From a virus (Duplodnaviria; Heunggongvirae; Uroviricota; Caudoviricetes): DNA of 5,912 nt. Each line of letters begins with the position of its first letter. The first letter of the stretch is position 1. Under the pieces are notes generated by a model. It saw only the letters and a list, made by a program, of their open reading frames with translations. It searched no databases and was not told where the DNA came from. The DNA lies in IMG/VR virus record IMGVR_UViG_2529292720_000008. One strand, given 5' to 3'. Of this stretch, positions 1-5,518 are shown one piece after another. The position numbers and the translations under genes were made by a program.

Positions 1-963
1 AAAAACCCCCGTTATGAGTTGTGCGCCACAGTACAGGAAGCACTAAAACCCGTTACGGTGAAGGAAGCGATTAACTACTGGCTGGAGGAATACGCGAAGG
101 ATAACCGCAAAGATTACATAAAGCTGGTGCAGCGTATGGATAAGCACATCATTTGCCATATTGGGGCAATTCCCCTTGATAAGTGTGATACAAGGCAGTG
201 GATCGCATGTTTTGACCGCGTACGAAAAAAAGCACCAGTAGCAGCGGGCCATGTCATGCAGACATGCAAACAGGCGCTAAAGTTTTGCCGCAGGCGGCGC
301 TACGCGTTTAGCAACGCCCTGGACGATTTGATCGTTACTGATGTGGGTAAGAGAGCAGAAATCCGCGAGAGAGTGCACAGCAACAGCGAACTAAAAGAAA
401 TTCTACGCGCTATTGATGGTGATGTGTTCGCTCCCTATTACAGTGCGTTAATGCGCTTGTTAATTGTGTTCGGGTGCAGAACGGCAGAGATCAGACTTTC
501 AGAGATCAAAGAATGGGATCTGAAAGAAATGTTGTGGACAGTGCCAAAAGAGCACAGCAAAACGAAGGTCGCCATATTCAGGCCAATACCGGAAAGCATT
601 TTACCGTTCGTCACGCAGCTGGTGGAGCAGAACAGACACACAGGGCTATTACTCGGGGAACTGAAACAGGAAGCCAGTGTGTCGCAATACGGCAGATTCA
701 TGCACAAAAAATTAAACCATCCGCACTGGTCACTACACGATATACGGCGCACGTTTACCACGATGCTGAACGATTTAGGCGTGGATCCGCATATTGTCGA
801 ACAACTCACCGCTCACCAGATGCCAGGGATGCAGCGAGTCTATAACCACTCCCGTTATCTCGATGCGAAACGTAATGCGCTGGACATGTGGACAGAGCGG
901 TTAGAGATACTGGCGGGTACTCACAAAAACGTAACCACACTGCCAATAGCCAGAGAAATATAA
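1..963 (+). CDS. int: Tyrosine recombinase / phage-type integrase, C-terminal portion; 5' end is outside the window (frame is open from position 1)
   Basis: Frame open from nt 1 to stop at 961-963. Translation carries the catalytic-domain hallmarks of tyrosine recombinases: conserved Arg in GCRTAEI, the HDIRRTF His-x-x-Arg box, and the C-terminal VYNHSRY tyrosine region, followed by a P4-type tail (LDAKRNALDMW). The TTG at 19 is only the ORF finder's first start, not the real one. Confidence 0.9.
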   Translation, partial: KNPRYELCATVQEALKPVTVKEAINYWLEEYAKDNRKDYIKLVQRMDKHIICHIGAIPLDKCDTRQWIACFDRVRKKAPVAAGHVMQTCKQALKFCRRRRYAFSNALDDLIVTDVGKRAEIRERVHSNSELKEILRAIDGDVFAPYYSALMRLLIVFGCRTAEIRLSEIKEWDLKEMLWTVPKEHSKTKVAIFRPIPESILPFVTQLVEQNRHTGLLLGELKQEASVSQYGRFMHKKLNHPHWSLHDIRRTFTTMLNDLGVDPHIVEQLTAHQMPGMQRVYNHSRYLDAKRNALDMWTERLEILAGTHKNVTTLPIAREI

Positions 964-1050: not shown

Positions 1051-1330
1051 TTAACATCTGACTGACACCCTAAAAAGTTGATTTTCAGTCGTTTTACTGG
1101 CTTTTTGTACATTGGCGAATCACTCTTAAAAACATGTAAAAAAGGCGTAAAAACAGAATTTTATGCCTTTGCACCACAATGAATTAAAAGAGTTTTTATT
1201 CTCATTACCACACTTCTGTAAAATGACCGCCGCCAGTGTTTGCCATTCCATAAACACCCTGACACAATCCGACGCACCACAACACAATAGGACACCAAAT
1301 AACTCTTTAAGAAATATCAAAGGGGGAATT

Positions 1331-1519
1331 GTGTTAAGCACAGATCGCTTTATACGTGAAAAAGAATGTCAGCAACTTACAGGCCTGAGCCGTTCATGTC
1401 GGTACCGCCTGGAAAAAACCGGACAATTCCCATCACGGCGTAAGCTCGGCGGTCGTTCCGTTGGCTGGTCTTTATCCGAAGTTCTGGCATGGAAGGAAAG
1501 CTGCGAGGCAGTTCACTAA
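1331..1519 (+). CDS. alpA: AlpA-family (Phage_AlpA / MerR-like HTH) transcriptional regulator or excision activator, 62 aa
   Basis: Translation VLSTDRFIREKECQQLTGLSRSCRYRLEKTGQFPSRRKLGGRSVGWSLSEVLAWKE matches the AlpA pattern (TG-x-SR-x-x-Y ... FP ... LG-x-RSVGW ... E-x-x-x-W). GTG start at 1331 has a strong Shine-Dalgarno AAAGGGGGAA at 1319-1328. The in-frame ATG at 1163 lacks an RBS and would add a non-homologous 56-aa extension. Confidence 0.8.
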   Translation: MLSTDRFIREKECQQLTGLSRSCRYRLEKTGQFPSRRKLGGRSVGWSLSEVLAWKESCEAVH

Positions 1520-1571: not shown

Positions 1572-2047
1572 ATGAATACTGGATATTCTCCCGAACAAGG
1601 GCGGGGCTTCGTTCGTCCTGAAAAACAGAATCTGCAAAATTTTGCCGAAATTATTCCGGTTATTTCCGGCCTTACTGGCGGGAGTGAAACCAATATTGTT
1701 AACGCCAGAGCGTTGCAGATGTTTGATGATAAAAAGGGAGTAAATTTAACTTACACCCCTGACGGCAATCAGAATATGAGCATTATCTCTGAGTCAGGTT
1801 TCTACAAACTAATAAAAACAAAAAGCGCCCCGTTGCCGGAGCGCCTTTGTGAACAATTAACCTACTGCGCAAAAAATGAATCTGAGCAGTGGGATTATAT
1901 CAACCGTGTGGCGAAGCGCCACAATTGCCGGATAACAGGCAAAACAAAGGCCACCCGCTACGGTGGCCCCTCGACACAAGCTACACGTTATCCCCAACGC
2001 ATGAGCATCACCAACAATGCCACATTTGCGGCTGGTGGGCAATGTGA
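1572..2047 (+). other. Possible coding region of uncertain status (start of a 470-codon stop-free frame); may be a decayed gene or a frameshifted remnant
   Basis: ATG at 1572 opens a frame whose first ~120 codons look protein-like (including an SESGFYKLI segment that faintly recalls the E-x-G-L-Y-x-L-I core of Bro-N/antirepressor proteins, from memory). There is no in-frame stop until 2984, and the middle of the frame (2050-2580) is Ser/Cys/Arg-rich, antisense-like translation. No boundary can be supported. Confidence 0.2.
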
Positions 2048-2221
2048 TCAGTCAGATTTGGTTCGTTCCAAGGTTTGCAACGAGAGCTTTTTCCTGTGCT
2101 CTTTAAGGAATTTCTCAAGAGCAAAAGCACATGGCGCGAATCTTTCTGATTCATGCTCTATCTTTCTGCGCCGTCTTTTCCGTGCCGGTGATAATGTTTT
2201 GGTCAATTCTTTATCGGTCAT
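2048..2221 (-). CDS. Small basic hypothetical protein (57 aa from the second ATG; the track start at 2236 gives 62 aa)
   Basis: Minus-strand ORF with charged, protein-like composition (MTDKELTKTLSPARKRRRRKIEHESERF...), in contrast to the junk-like plus-frame translation over the same DNA. AGGA lies 7 nt upstream of the second ATG. It sits directly downstream of the leftward RHH-like gene. No family recognised. Confidence 0.25.
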   Translation of the reverse strand: MTDKELTKTLSPARKRRRRKIEHESERFAPCAFALEKFLKEHRKKLSLQTLERTKSD

Positions 2222-2278
2222 TGTGTTGTCCTGCATAGCAATGCGCCGTAATACCTTACACCACGGCGCTGGTGATGG

Positions 2279-2551
2279 TCACTCCTGCTCTTTGGCCTTG
2301 CGACGCTGGAGTTCTTCACGCGCGACGGTGATGAGTTGCCCGATCTCCTCGGCTGCTTTGACTCCGATTTTTTCCACCTGCGCCAGTGCATCGAGCGAAG
2401 AAACCAGGGGATTTTCTCCGCTTCCTTCTGCCTGGCGGCGGGCGATCTCACCGCGAACGGCTGTAATCACGAAAGCGGCTATTGTTTCCCCTTCCGTTTT
2501 CGAATTTTCCATTTCCTCGATTACATCATGGGGGAAGCGGATATTTTTCAT
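2279..2551 (-). CDS. Putative ribbon-helix-helix-like DNA-binding protein, candidate repressor of the divergent rightward operon (90 aa; alternative start at 2584 gives 101 aa)
   Basis: Minus-strand ORF whose N-terminus (MKNIRFPHDVIEEMENSKTEGETIAAFVITAVRGEIARRQ) fits a beta-strand / helix / turn / helix RHH layout, with a helical charged C-terminus. The overlapping plus-frame translation is low-complexity. It is transcribed away from the palindrome-rich region at 2585-2780. The fold call comes from pattern only. Confidence 0.45.
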   Translation of the reverse strand: MKNIRFPHDVIEEMENSKTEGETIAAFVITAVRGEIARRQAEGSGENPLVSSLDALAQVEKIGVKAAEEIGQLITVAREELQRRKAKEQE

Positions 2552-2605
2552 TTGCGATCTGCTGTTGATATTTCCTGTTGCCATCAGAATGTCCGGTTAT
2601 TTTGA

Positions 2606-2709
2606 GGTGTGCATACATTACACCAAAAGGTGTGTAAATAAAACACTTGACACTGTAGCGCACTTAAATTTAATCTGTACACACACCAATGATTGTGGTG
2701 TATGTACAG
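2606..2709. promoter_or_regulatory. Divergent control region: rightward sigma70-like promoter (-35 TTGACA 2647-2652, 16-bp spacer, -10 TTTAAT 2669-2674) flanked by two palindromes built from GGTGTG/CACACC half-sites
   Basis: Consensus -35 hexamer and a 5/6 -10 hexamer at correct spacing. Upstream inverted repeat ACACC-aaaa-GGTGT at 2620-2633. Downstream 14-bp-arm inverted repeat CTGTACACACACCA (2675-2688) / TGGTGTATGTACAG (2696-2709) with one mismatch, overlapping the predicted transcription start. Further GGTGTG copies at 2606 and 2629. Confidence 0.55.
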
Positions 2710-2780
2710 CAAAGCCCCGCAGTGCTGGAACACATGCAGGGCTTCTAACCACCAACGATAGCGAAAGTATCGAGGTAGCT

Positions 2781-2984
2781 ATGAGAAATTATACCAGACA
2801 CCCGCAAGGGCGGGACTCGTACAACCTGAATAAATACATCTGGCGTTTTATCGCCCTGAGCACGGCACAACCGCGCGTGATTACCATTGAGGCCACCAGC
2901 GAACAGGAAGCGCGTCAGCAATCTCCTGATGGCTGCGTGATGGTATTCGCTGCCCGTATTCGCCAGGGGGAACACCATGATTAA
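2781..2984 (+). CDS. Icd-like small protein (host cell division inhibitor Icd-like family, as commonly annotated in P4-like prophages), 67 aa
   Basis: ATG at 2781 preceded by GAGGT at 2772-2776. Translation MRNYTRHPQGRDSYNLNKYIWRFIALSTAQPRVITIEATSEQEARQQSPDGCVMVFAARIRQGE fits my recollection of the Icd-like pattern (W-x-F-x-A-x-S ... SE-x-EAR ... FAAR). First gene downstream of the promoter; the stop overlaps the next start. Confidence 0.55.
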   Translation: MRNYTRHPQGRDSYNLNKYIWRFIALSTAQPRVITIEATSEQEARQQSPDGCVMVFAARIRQGEHHD

Positions 2985-3186
2985 CCTGTCACTTACCGAC
3001 CTTAACCGCGTTCAGTTTCGTGAGAAATTTACCGGGCAGCTACTGGTCAATGTGGATAAAGGTCGCGTGGTGTGTAATTACCACCTGCCAGATGAAGCCA
3101 TTGTCGCAACAAGGGAATCATTACAGGAACTCGCAGAACGTGCCGGAATGATTAACGCGAATATTCAGGGGGTGAGCCATGCATAA
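2977..3186 (+). CDS. Uncharacterised small protein, 69 aa; paralog of the next gene
   Basis: ATG at 2977 with SD GGGGG at 2966-2970; start overlaps the upstream stop (ATGATTAA). Shares an alignable core with the next ORF (FTGQLLVNVDKGRVVCNYHL versus YTGRVLVYLEKGRVKCQCRL, and ...AERAGM versus ...TKSGV). Confidence 0.6.
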   Translation: MINLSLTDLNRVQFREKFTGQLLVNVDKGRVVCNYHLPDEAIVATRESLQELAERAGMINANIQGVSHA

Positions 3187-3391
3187 TCATGAAACGCACT
3201 TACCTGTAGTGCTGAATGTGCCATCAGATTATACGGGGCGCGTACTGGTGTATCTGGAAAAAGGCCGGGTTAAATGTCAGTGCCGTTTAATGGAAAACGA
3301 ATTTATTAGCACTCTTGCGGGATTTTCTGAAATGCTCACTAAATCGGGTGTTAGTGCAGACCAGTTACGCGGGGGCGATTATGCGAAATAA
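3179..3391 (+). CDS. Uncharacterised small protein, 70 aa; tandem paralog of the 2977-3186 gene
   Basis: ATG at 3179 with SD GGGGGG at 3166-3171; overlaps the upstream stop (ATGcaTAA). About one third identity to the preceding protein when aligned by eye, including conserved TG, KGRV and Cys positions. Confidence 0.6.
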   Translation: MHNHETHLPVVLNVPSDYTGRVLVYLEKGRVKCQCRLMENEFISTLAGFSEMLTKSGVSADQLRGGDYAK

Positions 3392-3605: not shown

Positions 3606-3905
3606 ATGAAACAGAAAAATTCTGGCTTTACTGCCAGTGGTCTCCCTCGGCCTGAAATCCGCCCCGGTGATATTTTCCGGGATAACTACGGTGGCACGGT
3701 AACGATTAAAAGCGTGGCGGGGCGGTGCGTTACTTACCGCCGTGATGGGTACGGCTATGACTGCGTGATGCCTGCTTATCAGTTCCGGCGTGATTTTTCA
3801 CTGATACAGGCCACACCACGCAAACAGCCCACCAGCAACGCAAAGGCACGGGCAAATATTCAGAAAATGAAAAACATGATTAACGCATTCAGGGGCAAAA
3901 AATGA
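3606..3905 (+). CDS. Uncharacterised small basic protein, 99 aa, translationally coupled to rep
   Basis: ATG at 3606 with GGAGT upstream; its stop overlaps the rep start (ATGA at 3902-3905). Gly/Arg/Tyr-rich core (GDIFRDNYGGTVTIKSVAGRCVTYRRDGYGYDCVMPAYQFRRDF) suggests a small beta-rich domain. No family recognised. Confidence 0.5.
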   Translation: MKQKNSGFTASGLPRPEIRPGDIFRDNYGGTVTIKSVAGRCVTYRRDGYGYDCVMPAYQFRRDFSLIQATPRKQPTSNAKARANIQKMKNMINAFRGKK

Positions 3906-5317
3906 AACTGGCACCGAACTTAAAAAAACAGCCACACGACAAAATGACCGAAGTCATTATTTTTGCGGGTAGTGATGCCTGGGCGCACGCGAAACAGTGG
4001 CAGGAACAGGACGGGCGACTTGCTGGTGATAACGTCCCGCCTGTATGGCTGGGAGACAGCCAGCTTGACGAACTGGCAGACCTGAAAATTATCGACGATG
4101 GTCGCTATTGTGTCCGGCTGTACAAGGCAGGCCACATCAAGCCGTCAAATATTAATGCTATCGGGCAAAAGCTGGCGGCGGCAGGTGTACGGGATGCGAA
4201 TTATTACCCTGATGGAATGCACAGCCAGAAGCTGGAGAACTGGCACGACTACCTGCAACGGATCCGCGAACAGGCAGAGCGCGGGGAAATACTTACTGAC
4301 GAGCAATACAGCCAGCGAAAAACCACGCTACCAATGAGCATTGGATCTGCAGGGTACGACACACAGCTTGATTATGTCGTTAAGGGCGTGATTCCGGCTA
4401 ATTCATTGTGCAGCACATACGGCGCGAGCGGTTCCTATAAATCGTTCCTCGCGTGTTCCTGGGCGTGTCATGTTGCCACTGGCCGTCACTGGGGAGGCCG
4501 CAGGGTGGCGCATGGTTCGGTGATGTATGTTGTCGGTGAAGGTGGCATTGGTGTCCCCCGCCGTATCAAGGCATGGGAAATCGTTAATGATGAACGGGTG
4601 GAAAATCTGTACCTGGTAAACCGCCCGATTTTTCCGGCAGTCCCGCTTGATGTTGATGAAATGGTCATCGCTTCCCGCCAGGTTGAACGGGAAACGGGTA
4701 AACCGGTACGCATGATTATTCTTGATACGCTGGCGCGTTGCTTTGGCGGTAATGATGAAAATGACGCGCGGGATATGGGGGCGTTTATCCGTGGATGTGA
4801 CGAACTGAAACGCCGCACAGGGGCCACGGTGCTGGTGGTTCACCATTCCGGCAAGGATGAAACAAAGGGGGCGCGTGGTTCCAGTGCATTTCGTGCATCT
4901 CTGGACGCTGAATACCGTATTCGCCGTGAAGGTGCAGACAGTGAAGCCCTGGTTATCTCCTGCACAAAAATGAAGGACGCGGAGGAACTGAAAGAGGCCG
5001 CATACGATTTACGTGTGGTGGAGCTTTTTACCGACACTGACGGGGAGTTAATCACGTCGCTGGTTGTTGTGGATAAGCCGCGCCCACCCGTTGAACTGGA
5101 GCGCATCGAGGAAGCCGGGAACAAGACGGAGAATCATGCCGCGCTATGGGGCTGTATCCGTTCACGCACACAGCGCGGAGATAAATGCACTATTCCGTTG
5201 TTGCGCGATGATATGAAAAAGCTGGGGTATGAGATGAAACACTTCCGGCGCTGGCTGTACAAGCTGGAAGGTGATGGCGTTATTGCTATTGACGGTGATG
5301 ACGTGCGCCCACTGTAA
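3902..5317 (+). CDS. rep: Replication protein: RepA-like / DnaB-like RecA-fold ATPase (AAA_25-type) with an uncharacterised N-terminal ~150-aa domain, 471 aa
   Basis: Walker A GASGSYKS at nt 4421-4444, Walker B-like hydrophobic stretch with Asp (RMIILDTLA, around nt 4709-4735), and the VLVVHHSGKDETKGARGSSA motif typical of RepA-like helicase/ATPase cores. Ends immediately upstream of an iteron cluster. The alternative start at the MTEV Met (nt 3944) cannot be excluded. Confidence 0.85.
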   Translation: MKLAPNLKKQPHDKMTEVIIFAGSDAWAHAKQWQEQDGRLAGDNVPPVWLGDSQLDELADLKIIDDGRYCVRLYKAGHIKPSNINAIGQKLAAAGVRDANYYPDGMHSQKLENWHDYLQRIREQAERGEILTDEQYSQRKTTLPMSIGSAGYDTQLDYVVKGVIPANSLCSTYGASGSYKSFLACSWACHVATGRHWGGRRVAHGSVMYVVGEGGIGVPRRIKAWEIVNDERVENLYLVNRPIFPAVPLDVDEMVIASRQVERETGKPVRMIILDTLARCFGGNDENDARDMGAFIRGCDELKRRTGATVLVVHHSGKDETKGARGSSAFRASLDAEYRIRREGADSEALVISCTKMKDAEELKEAAYDLRVVELFTDTDGELITSLVVVDKPRPPVELERIEEAGNKTENHAALWGCIRSRTQRGDKCTIPLLRDDMKKLGYEMKHFRRWLYKLEGDGVIAIDGDDVRPL

Positions 5318-5518
5318 AAAGTGGGTAGTAAAAGTGGGGAGTGTGGGGAATTTAACAAAATTGAAACGTGATTCCCCACTTTCCCACCTGTATATACCCC
5401 AAAAAGTGGGGAATAAAAAACACATTGAAAAACATCACGTTAGAATCACAAAAAAAAGAAGTGGGGAGACGTTGGGTAATTTCAAAAAGTGGGTAGTAAA
5501 AGTGGGGAGCAGTGAGGA
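5316..5518. repeat. Iteron cluster, putative origin of replication: at least 8 copies of AGTGGGGA-like 8-mers in both orientations, a 26-bp perfect direct repeat (5316-5341 and 5484-5509), and an A-rich tract
   Basis: Read directly: AAAAAGTGGGTAGTAAAAGTGGGGAG occurs twice. Additional GTGGGGA / TCCCCAC copies at 5334-5340, 5342-5349, 5373-5380 (inverted), 5381-5388 (inverted variant), 5405-5412 and 5461-5467. A-rich segment at 5411-5460. Position right after rep fits a rep-ori arrangement. Confidence 0.7.

What the first reader, a model, noticed from the sequence alone, without database searches (positions are those of the whole stretch)
3902..5317. Rep ATPase carries an unassigned N-terminal domain in place of an obvious primase domain
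The C-terminal two-thirds is a clear RepA-like RecA-fold ATPase, but the first ~150 residues (MTEVIIFAGSDAWAHAK ... LKIIDDGRYCVRLYKAGH) match no primase signature I can name. The VIIFAGSD and IIDDG segments could be a degenerate Toprim-like fold or a distinct iteron-binding or helper-interaction domain. At 471 aa it is far shorter than P4 alpha (roughly 780 aa, from memory), so primase activity may be absent or supplied elsewhere.
Basis: partly seen in the sequence, partly recalled or inferred. Interest (0 to 1): 0.45.

Follow-up and report, generated by a model that had tools for sequence, protein, structure and literature searches.

The report
Satellite Rep helicase with primase-relic head
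The replication protein of an E. coli phage satellite starts with a conserved, uncatalogued 130-residue domain that sits where a primase normally would, most resembles a primase core in fold but lacks its catalytic residues, and is swapped as a cassette between four kinds of satellite helicase.

Summary
ORF 3902-5317 encodes a 471-aa RepA/AAA_25 ATPase. Residues 1-130 match no Pfam, NCBIfam or PDB sequence family.

The window is part of an EcCICFT073-type phage-inducible chromosomal island (PICI).

The N-terminal "head" is a real, confidently folded α/β domain (pLDDT 92). Its DNA occurs in about 21% of complete E. coli genomes. It is fused to four different NTPase bodies: AAA_25, D5_N/SF3, DUF927 and VapE. 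One of these proteins is the experimentally validated EcCICFT073 Pri-Rep.

Natural chimeras carrying a near-identical head have unrelated origin iterons, so the head does not set iteron specificity. The body and C-terminal winged-helix-like domain do.

The best reading is a non-catalytic, Toprim-like module in the primase slot, with priming left to the host. That function is inferred, not shown.

It is a new variant of a known kind and moderately interesting.

The parts
3902..5317 (+). rep gene: 471-aa replication initiator-helicase of the satellite. The start ATG overlaps the stop of the upstream DUF4222 gene (ATGA).
   Evidence: (phrog_2850 full length, E 7e-251)
3902..4285 (+). N-terminal 'head', residues 1-128. 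A compact alpha/beta domain: b18-22, a26-41, b48-50, a52-56, b70-75, a81-93, b98-102, a115-126. Invariant positions are A4 P5 E17 G23 A26 P47 L55 G77. E112 is acidic in 20 of 21 copies.
   Evidence: (pLDDT 91.9)
4286..4351 (+). Variable acidic linker, residues 129-150. Predicted with low confidence; this is the recombination joint between head and body.
   Evidence: 26-100% identity, independent of the flanking modules
4352..5086 (+). RepA/DnaB-like RecA-fold ATPase, residues ~151-395 (Pfam AAA_25 at 152-320). Walker A is GASGSYKS at residues 174-181 (nt 4421-4444); Walker B is around D275.
5087..5314 (+). C-terminal region, residues 396-471. Three helices plus a beta-hairpin form a winged-helix-like domain, the likely iteron-recognition domain.
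   Evidence: pLDDT 84-94. Iteron type follows body/C-terminus, not head. The DNA-binding role is inferred.
5316..5509 (.). Putative replication origin: at least 6 direct and 2 inverted copies of AAAGTGGGKA flanking an AT-rich core, directly after the rep stop codon.
   Evidence: Organisation matches that described for Gram-negative PICI origins (PMC6092414).
3606..3905 (+). Upstream DUF4222 gene with an overlapping stop/start. It is a neighbour of the head in E. coli islands whatever the body type, but it is absent upstream of distant heads.

Best explanation
The gene encodes the replication initiator-helicase of an EcCICFT073-type phage-inducible chromosomal island (PICI). The island runs int, alpA-like, icd-like, small ORFs, DUF4222, rep, ori, ssb, capsid, decoration protein, terS.

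The protein has three modules that recombine independently:
1. A ~130-residue N-terminal head.
2. A RepA/DnaB-like AAA_25 ATPase that drives unwinding.
3. A C-terminal winged-helix-like domain that most likely reads the AAAGTGGGKA iterons just downstream.

The head is a lineage-restricted cassette (Enterobacterales and Pasteurellaceae) placed in front of four unrelated helicase/NTPase bodies. It always sits in the slot where mobile-element helicases normally carry a primase. Its fold is closest to the Toprim core of DnaG-type primases. It has no conserved acidic residue where Toprim carries its catalytic Glu and DxD, and no zinc-binding module.

I therefore read it as a non-catalytic primase relic or look-alike, comparable to the inactive primase-like domain of human Twinkle. 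It would sit on the N-terminal face of the helicase ring and link the helicase to priming or replisome assembly by host factors such as DnaG.

Shown here: the domain exists, is portable, lacks known signatures and conserved catalytic acids, and is independent of iteron type. Inferred: Toprim ancestry, and the role as an adaptor or collar for host priming.
For: - Satellite context.
- No family match for the head.
- Confident fold: (pLDDT 91.9, pTM 0.85).
- DnaG also ranks 2nd in Foldseek-PDB and 4th in BFVD.
- Same head on four bodies, AAA_25, D5_N+DUF5906+Pox_D5, DUF927 and VapE.
- P4 alpha has Zn_Ribbon_Prim + Toprim_3 ahead of the same D5_N body, so the head occupies the primase slot.
- Only E17 and E112 are conserved acids, none lies just after beta1 or beta3, and no Cys/His is conserved: with strand positions.
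- Head is uncoupled from iterons. L003 has a head 100% identical over residues 1-69 but TGTTCACC iterons. EcCICFT073 has a 63% identical head and CTGTCTACC iterons. L004 has the same body and AAAGTGAGG iterons.
- Module shuffling within the AAA_25 class.
- EcCICFT073 rep+ori replicates in DH5alpha without a helper or other island genes (PMC6092414).
- No other primase is annotated on the island.
- Twinkle precedent: PMC9371709.
Against: - Foldseek finds nothing significant in the PDB.
- hhalign of the head profile against T7 gp4, DnaG, P4 alpha and a 3-sequence Toprim profile gives probability below 1%.
- I could not obtain model coordinates or a structural alignment. The motif mapping (EGxxD to A22-G23-S-D-A26; DxDxxG to R72-L-Y-K-A76-G77) is by eye.
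- No evidence of any kind links the head to DnaG or another host protein.
- The head is near-neutral (median pI 6.1), which neither supports nor excludes DNA binding.
- Two invariant or near-invariant glutamates (E17, E112) and the invariant N-terminal A-P motif remain unexplained.
Confidence: 0.5

Rival explanations
1. The head is an active primase of a new, minimal type. It would use E17, E112 and the conserved N-terminal segment instead of the canonical Toprim Glu/DxD, so these 'Pri-Rep' proteins really do prime their own replication.
For: - It occupies the primase slot ahead of four helicase bodies.
- Rep+ori of EcCICFT073 is a self-sufficient replicon in E. coli.
- No other primase is present on the island.
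- Two acidic positions are essentially invariant.
- The nearest folds are primase cores.
Against: - It is only ~130 residues, with no zinc ribbon or other template-recognition module and no conserved Cys/His.
- Only two conserved acids are present, whereas DnaG-type sites use four or more. By secondary structure, E17 lies at the N-terminal end of beta1, away from the usual Toprim site.
- No similarity to any primase HMM.
Confidence: 0.12
2. The head is a DNA-handling domain that is not sequence-specific. It would bind ssDNA or the AT-rich core to help melt the origin or load the ring, as proposed for the N-terminal regions of some SF4 helicases.
For: - It is shared by bodies that all must load at an iteron/AT-rich origin of the same layout (PMC6092414).
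- Independence from iteron sequence is compatible with non-specific binding.
Against: - The domain is near-neutral to acidic (median pI 6.1, net charge -1), with no conserved basic residue in the invariant set.
- No DNA-binding fold appears among the structural hits.
Confidence: 0.18
3. The head is a regulatory or partner-binding module specific to satellite biology. It could sense or sequester a helper-phage replication protein (interference), or bind a co-encoded small protein such as DUF4222.
For: - It is restricted to satellites and satellite-like elements of Enterobacterales and Pasteurellaceae.
- It is tightly linked and translationally coupled to DUF4222 in E. coli islands whatever the body type.
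- A stand-alone 112-aa structural homologue exists in an uncultured phage.
Against: - DUF4222 is absent upstream of the head in Klebsiella, Pasteurella and vB_KppS-Ant elements.
- EcCICFT073 rep+ori works without a helper phage or other island genes.
- A purely regulatory add-on would not be expected to be invariably present on four different bodies.
Confidence: 0.15

Closest known systems
EcCICFT073 Pri-Rep (WP_000761835.1) and the '4 allelic variants' of Pri-Rep of Gram-negative PICIs (Fillol-Salom et al. 2018, PMC6092414)
   Same: - Same island layout and the same position of the gene, followed by an iteron/AT-rich origin.
- The head is 63% identical over 134 residues.
   Different: - The body is D5_N+DUF5906+Pox_D5 (SF3) rather than AAA_25, and the iterons are unrelated.
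- The literature calls the protein a primase. In the library searched, no paper describes the head or notes that a primase domain is missing.
Human Twinkle (PDB 7t8b) and its relation to T7 gp4
   Same: - An SF4 RecA-fold helicase preceded by a primase-like Toprim-fold domain that has lost the zinc finger and catalytic residues (PMC9371709).
   Different: - Twinkle's domain is larger and demonstrably homologous to gp4 primase. Here homology cannot be shown by sequence.
- The ATPase here is RepA/AAA_25-type and carries an extra C-terminal winged-helix-like domain.
Satellite phage P4 alpha protein (777 aa)
   Same: A satellite replication protein that combines an N-terminal priming region, a helicase and C-terminal origin binding, with an AlpA/Vis-type regulator upstream.
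   Different: - P4 alpha has Zn_Ribbon_Prim (29-65) and Toprim_3 (209-298) with EGYATA and DRD motifs, plus an SF3 body.
- The window protein has none of these, and no sequence similarity to them.
RSF1010 RepA helicase (PDB 1g8y)
   Same: RecA-fold hexameric-helicase ATPase of the AAA_25 type; it is the only PDB sequence relative.
   Different: - RepA is 279 aa, with neither the N-terminal head nor the C-terminal DNA-binding domain.
- From established knowledge of RSF1010: that replicon supplies priming and origin binding through separate proteins, RepB' and RepC.

Membership tests
RepA/DnaB-like (AAA_25) helicase ATPases | Match to the AAA_25 profile above the curated cut-off | tested here: met
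   151.3 bits against a cut-off of 27, residues 152-320
RepA/DnaB-like (AAA_25) helicase ATPases | Walker A and Walker B motifs intact | tested here: met
   GASGSYKS at 174-181; MIILDTL with D275 invariant
RepA/DnaB-like (AAA_25) helicase ATPases | Hexameric ring and 5'-3' unwinding activity | not testable with these tools
   Needs biochemistry or a solved structure
Toprim domain of DnaG-type primases | Match to a Toprim profile (PF01751, PF13155, PF13362, PF13662) | tested here: not met
   No Toprim hit for any of 21 heads. hhalign to T7 gp4, DnaG, P4 alpha and a small Toprim profile gives probability below 1%.
Toprim domain of DnaG-type primases | Four-stranded alpha/beta Toprim fold | tested here: inconclusive
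Toprim domain of DnaG-type primases | Conserved catalytic Glu after beta1 and DxD after beta3 | tested here: not met
   After beta1 comes A22-G23. After beta3 comes A76-G77. No acidic column is conserved at either site; only E17 and E112 are conserved acids.
Toprim domain of DnaG-type primases | Associated zinc-binding domain for template recognition | tested here: not met
   No Zn-ribbon hit and no conserved Cys/His. P4 alpha shows one under the same scan.
Archaeo-eukaryotic primase / Prim-Pol | Match to AEP or Prim-Pol profiles | tested here: not met
   No such Pfam or NCBIfam hit. None among the structural neighbours.
Gram-negative PICI replication module (Pri-Rep + ori) | Gene lies downstream of and co-oriented with int and alpA, and is followed directly by two iteron sets flanking an AT-rich region | tested here: met
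   The definition is in PMC6092414.
Gram-negative PICI replication module (Pri-Rep + ori) | Sequence relationship to a validated PICI Pri-Rep | tested here: met
   The head is 63% identical to that of EcCICFT073 Pri-Rep. The bodies are unrelated.
Gram-negative PICI replication module (Pri-Rep + ori) | rep+ori drives autonomous replication; induction by a helper phage | not testable with these tools
   Shown for EcCICFT073 only

The most novel reading that the evidence does not exclude
The head is a previously unrecognised functional unit common to all Gram-negative PICI replicons. It would be either a new minimal primase catalytic domain, or a dedicated adaptor that captures the host primase or replisome for four unrelated helicases. 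If so, the name 'primase' given to thousands of annotated proteins rests on a domain nobody has characterised.
Probability: 0.3. Interest if true: 0.7.

Novelty: new variant of a known kind. Interest (0 to 1): 0.45.

Why it matters
Proteins carrying this head are annotated 'DNA primase' or 'Pri-Rep' in about a fifth of E. coli genomes and in the model island EcCICFT073. Yet none of the libraries searched recognises a primase domain in them. The name comes from the P4-type helicase part.

Recognising the head as a separate, portable, probably non-catalytic module has three consequences:
- It changes how satellite replication should be modelled. The question of who makes the primers is open.
- It explains the 'four allelic variants' of Pri-Rep as one head on four bodies.
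- It gives a clean handle for experiments, such as head deletion, head swaps, and E17 or E112 mutants.

It also defines a candidate new domain family for Pfam or InterPro.

Tried and rejected
- **Sequence libraries.** Pfam, NCBIfam and PDB sequence or profile searches of the head found nothing.
- **Bridge to Toprim.** A profile search of 5.8 billion proteins with the head alignment gave 130 hits, none bridging to a Toprim family.
- **Profile comparisons.** hhalign of the head profile against T7 gp4, E. coli DnaG, P4 alpha, and a profile of their three Toprim segments gave probability below 1%.
- **Foldseek.** Against the PDB, no hit was better than E 0.05.
- **AFDB50.** This fold library was unavailable.
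- **Model coordinates.** I could not make a structure-based residue alignment or map the conserved residues in 3D.
- **Iteron-binding role for the head.** Rejected using natural chimeras.
- **DUF4222 as an obligate partner.** Rejected, because it is absent in distant elements.
- **'IIDDG' as a DxD motif.** Rejected, because the residues are not conserved and lie in a loop.
- **RepB_primase_C.** This faint Pfam hit (E 0.11-0.17, 16 residues) was dismissed as noise.
- **Rfam.** The scan of the window gave no hits.
- **Literature.** Searches found no description of this domain.

Full report
**1. The observation**

The ORF at 3902..5317 on the + strand is real and encodes 471 residues. Pfam recognises only AAA_25, at residues 152-320 (E 3e-44). 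The only sequence relative with a solved structure is the RSF1010 RepA helicase, matching residues 153-326 weakly (E 0.004). Walker A (GASGSYKS, 174-181) and Walker B (D275) are intact.

Residues 1-150 match nothing in Pfam or NCBIfam. PHROGs places the whole protein in phrog_2850 (function unknown). It also aligns residues 3-135 to an N-terminal segment of phrog_864, 'DNA primase' (E 3e-18).

The true start is Met1 (MKLAPNLK...), not the Met15 that begins the quoted peptide. A4 and P5 are invariant in all relatives, and the ATG overlaps the stop of the upstream gene. Also, the last ~75 residues are a separate three-helix plus hairpin domain, winged-helix-like, with pLDDT 84-94.

**2. What element this is**

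The window is 97% identical to a ~10 kb island between abgR and smrA in E. coli chromosomes. That island carries, in order:
- int, an AlpA-type HTH regulator and icd-like
- small ORFs, then DUF4222
- this rep gene, a small ORF, and ssb
- major capsid, head decoration protein, an HTH regulator, and terS

This is the layout of Gram-negative phage-inducible chromosomal islands (PICIs). The model island EcCICFT073 (NC_004431, 1377930-1388654) has the same gene order.

Directly after the rep stop codon, at 5316-5509, lie at least six direct and two inverted copies of AAAGTGGGKA around an AT-rich core. This is the origin organisation described for PICIs (PMC6092414).

**3. The head is a real, portable domain**

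Searching with residues 1-150 alone finds the same ~130-residue head at 27-97% identity, joined to four different bodies:
- AAA_25, as in this window
- D5_N + DUF5906 + Pox_D5, an SF3 helicase. Examples are EcCICFT073 Pri-Rep, Pasteurella Pmp7 and vB_KppS-Ant.
- DUF927, for example in Klebsiella P12620-1
- VapE-like

This probably corresponds to the 'four allelic variants of Pri-Rep' noted for E. coli PICIs (PMC6092414).

The head's DNA is found in 1122 of 5426 complete E. coli genomes. The protein family is small, about 100-130 clusters, and the hits whose sources give an organism name are almost all from Enterobacterales and Pasteurellaceae.

The three modules also recombine independently within the AAA_25 class:

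| Relative | Head identity | ATPase identity | C-terminus identity |
|---|---|---|---|
| P0032 | 44% | 98% | 89% |
| P0058 | 62% | 69% | 97% |

Across 21 diverse heads, the invariant residues are A4, P5, E17, G23, A26, P47, L55 and G77. Positions P11, I20, L50, A92 and E112 are nearly invariant.

**4. Fold**

AlphaFold2 models the head with mean pLDDT 91.9 and pTM 0.85. The topology is a b-a-b-a-b-a-b domain followed by a C-terminal helix.

| Search | Result |
|---|---|
| Foldseek vs PDB | Nothing below E 0.05; S. aureus DnaG ranks 2nd |
| Foldseek vs BFVD | One significant hit, an uncharacterised 112-aa phage protein (E 4e-5); a DnaG-Toprim entry ranks 4th, not significant |
| hhalign to T7 gp4, DnaG, P4 alpha and their joint Toprim profile | No signal |

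The DnaG-type Toprim is therefore consistently the nearest known fold. Homology is not demonstrated.

**5. Catalytic residues**

In real primases the motifs are as follows:

| Protein | Motif after beta1 | Motif after beta3 |
|---|---|---|
| T7 gp4 | VVTEGEID | FDMDEAG |
| E. coli DnaG | VVEGYMD | YDGDRAG |
| P4 alpha | IAEGYAT | ADRDLSG |

In the head, beta1 (VIIFA, residues 18-22) is followed by invariant G23, and beta3 (CVRLYK, 70-75) is followed by A76 and invariant G77. The glycine landmarks are there but the acids are not.

Only E17 (21 of 21) and E112 (20 of 21) are conserved acidic positions. Neither lies at the C-terminal strand ends, where Toprim sites sit. The 'IIDDG' aspartates lie in a loop and are not conserved. 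No Cys or His is conserved, and there is no zinc ribbon. Under the same scan, P4 alpha shows Zn_Ribbon_Prim plus Toprim_3 ahead of its D5_N body.

**6. The head is not the iteron reader**

Three natural comparisons address this:

| Locus | Head vs window | Body | Iteron type |
|---|---|---|---|
| Window | reference | AAA_25 | AAAGTGGGKA |
| L003 (strain 08-00022) | 100% over residues 1-69; 86% over 131 | SF3 | TGTTCACC |
| EcCICFT073 | 63% | SF3 | CTGTCTACC |
| L004 | 87% over the whole protein | AAA_25 | AAAGTGAGG |

Iteron type follows the body and C-terminus, not the head. The C-terminal winged-helix-like domain is the likely reader, though this is an inference.

**7. Other constraints on function**

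- EcCICFT073 rep plus ori maintains a plasmid in DH5alpha without a helper phage or other island genes (PMC6092414). A head-bearing protein therefore needs only host factors.
- The island encodes no other primase.
- DUF4222 is translationally coupled to the head in E. coli whatever the body type. It is absent upstream of the head in Klebsiella, Pasteurella and vB_KppS-Ant, so it is not an obligate partner.
- The head is near-neutral (median pI 6.1), so it is not an obvious DNA binder.

**8. Most likely mechanism**

The C-terminal domain would bind the iterons, and the AAA_25 ring would assemble and unwind from the AT-rich core. The head occupies the primase slot on the N-terminal face. It would act as a non-catalytic Toprim-like collar or adaptor that links the helicase to host priming and replisome assembly. 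This parallels the inactive primase-like domain of human Twinkle (PMC9371709).

My confidence in each part differs:
- The domain's existence, portability, lack of a known signature and lack of canonical catalytic residues: high.
- Independence from iteron type: about 0.85.
- Toprim ancestry: about 0.5.
- The host-priming adaptor role: about 0.35.

The rivals are a cryptic minimal primase, a non-specific DNA-loading domain, and a satellite-specific partner-binding module.

**9. Novelty**

The protein is an ordinary member of PICI replication proteins. The head is an uncatalogued domain family that is widespread in E. coli. It is hidden under the label 'DNA primase', which derives from the helicase part. 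No paper in the searched library describes it.

It is best classed as a new variant of a known kind: a helicase with a degenerate primase-like N-terminal domain. It is moderately interesting, chiefly because it makes 'who primes PICI replication?' a directly testable question.

Noticed in passing
window 1572-2984 (+), 2279-2584 (-), 2781-2984 (+): The 470-aa ORF, which RefSeq annotates in a 97%-identical island as 'host cell division inhibitor Icd-like protein', looks like a read-through artefact. Only its last 67 residues (from Met404, nt 2781) match the 66-aa Icd-like protein of EcCICFT073, at 92% identity. A YlcI/YnfO-family ORF (NCBIfam E 8e-18) lies on the opposite strand inside it, and AT skew flips sign there.
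   Followed up: partly
window 5316-5509; L004 7400-7600; L003 7815-8040; L009 10000-10240: Origin iterons differ between related islands: AAAGTGGGKA, AAAGTGAGG, TGTTCACC and CTGTCTACC. The window and L004 differ by one iteron base while their Rep C-terminal domains differ at six positions (for example H447N). This is a candidate recognition code.
   Followed up: partly
window 2977-3186 and 3179-3391 (+): Two adjacent, overlapping small ORFs (69 and 70 aa) both belong to phrog_340 (unknown function). They form a tandem paralogue pair upstream of the replication gene.
   Followed up: no
proteins P0133, P0136, P0214, P0181, P0153: Database proteins fuse the head directly to the C-terminal half of SSB, to PerC, or to DUF4222. 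These are probably deletion or frameshift derivatives of decaying islands. In the 97%-identical island L001 the ssb gene is itself frameshifted.
   Followed up: partly
window 19-963 (+) and 1163-1519 (+): The window starts inside the integrase gene. The 314-aa ORF is the C-terminal part of a ~409-aa integrase (1230-nt gene, L001 11703-12932). The AlpA-domain ORF is listed as 118 aa, but RefSeq calls only the last 62 aa (AlpA domain at residues 61-110).
   Followed up: no
L010 (Klebsiella phage P12620-1, PQ569648.1 98633-100768); L002 (vB_KppS-Ant): A 106-kb record deposited as a Klebsiella phage contains a head+DUF927 gene typical of satellites. The 16.5-kb 'Escherichia phage vB_KppS-Ant' has integrase, head+SF3 rep, capsid, portal, connector and terminase genes, so it looks like a capsid-forming PICI rather than a phage.
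   Followed up: no
BFVD entry A0A6J5LID1: A stand-alone 112-aa uncharacterised protein from an uncultured Caudovirales phage is the only significant structural match of the head (E 4e-5, TM 0.57/0.67, 18% identity). The fold may therefore also exist as a free-standing phage protein.
   Followed up: no
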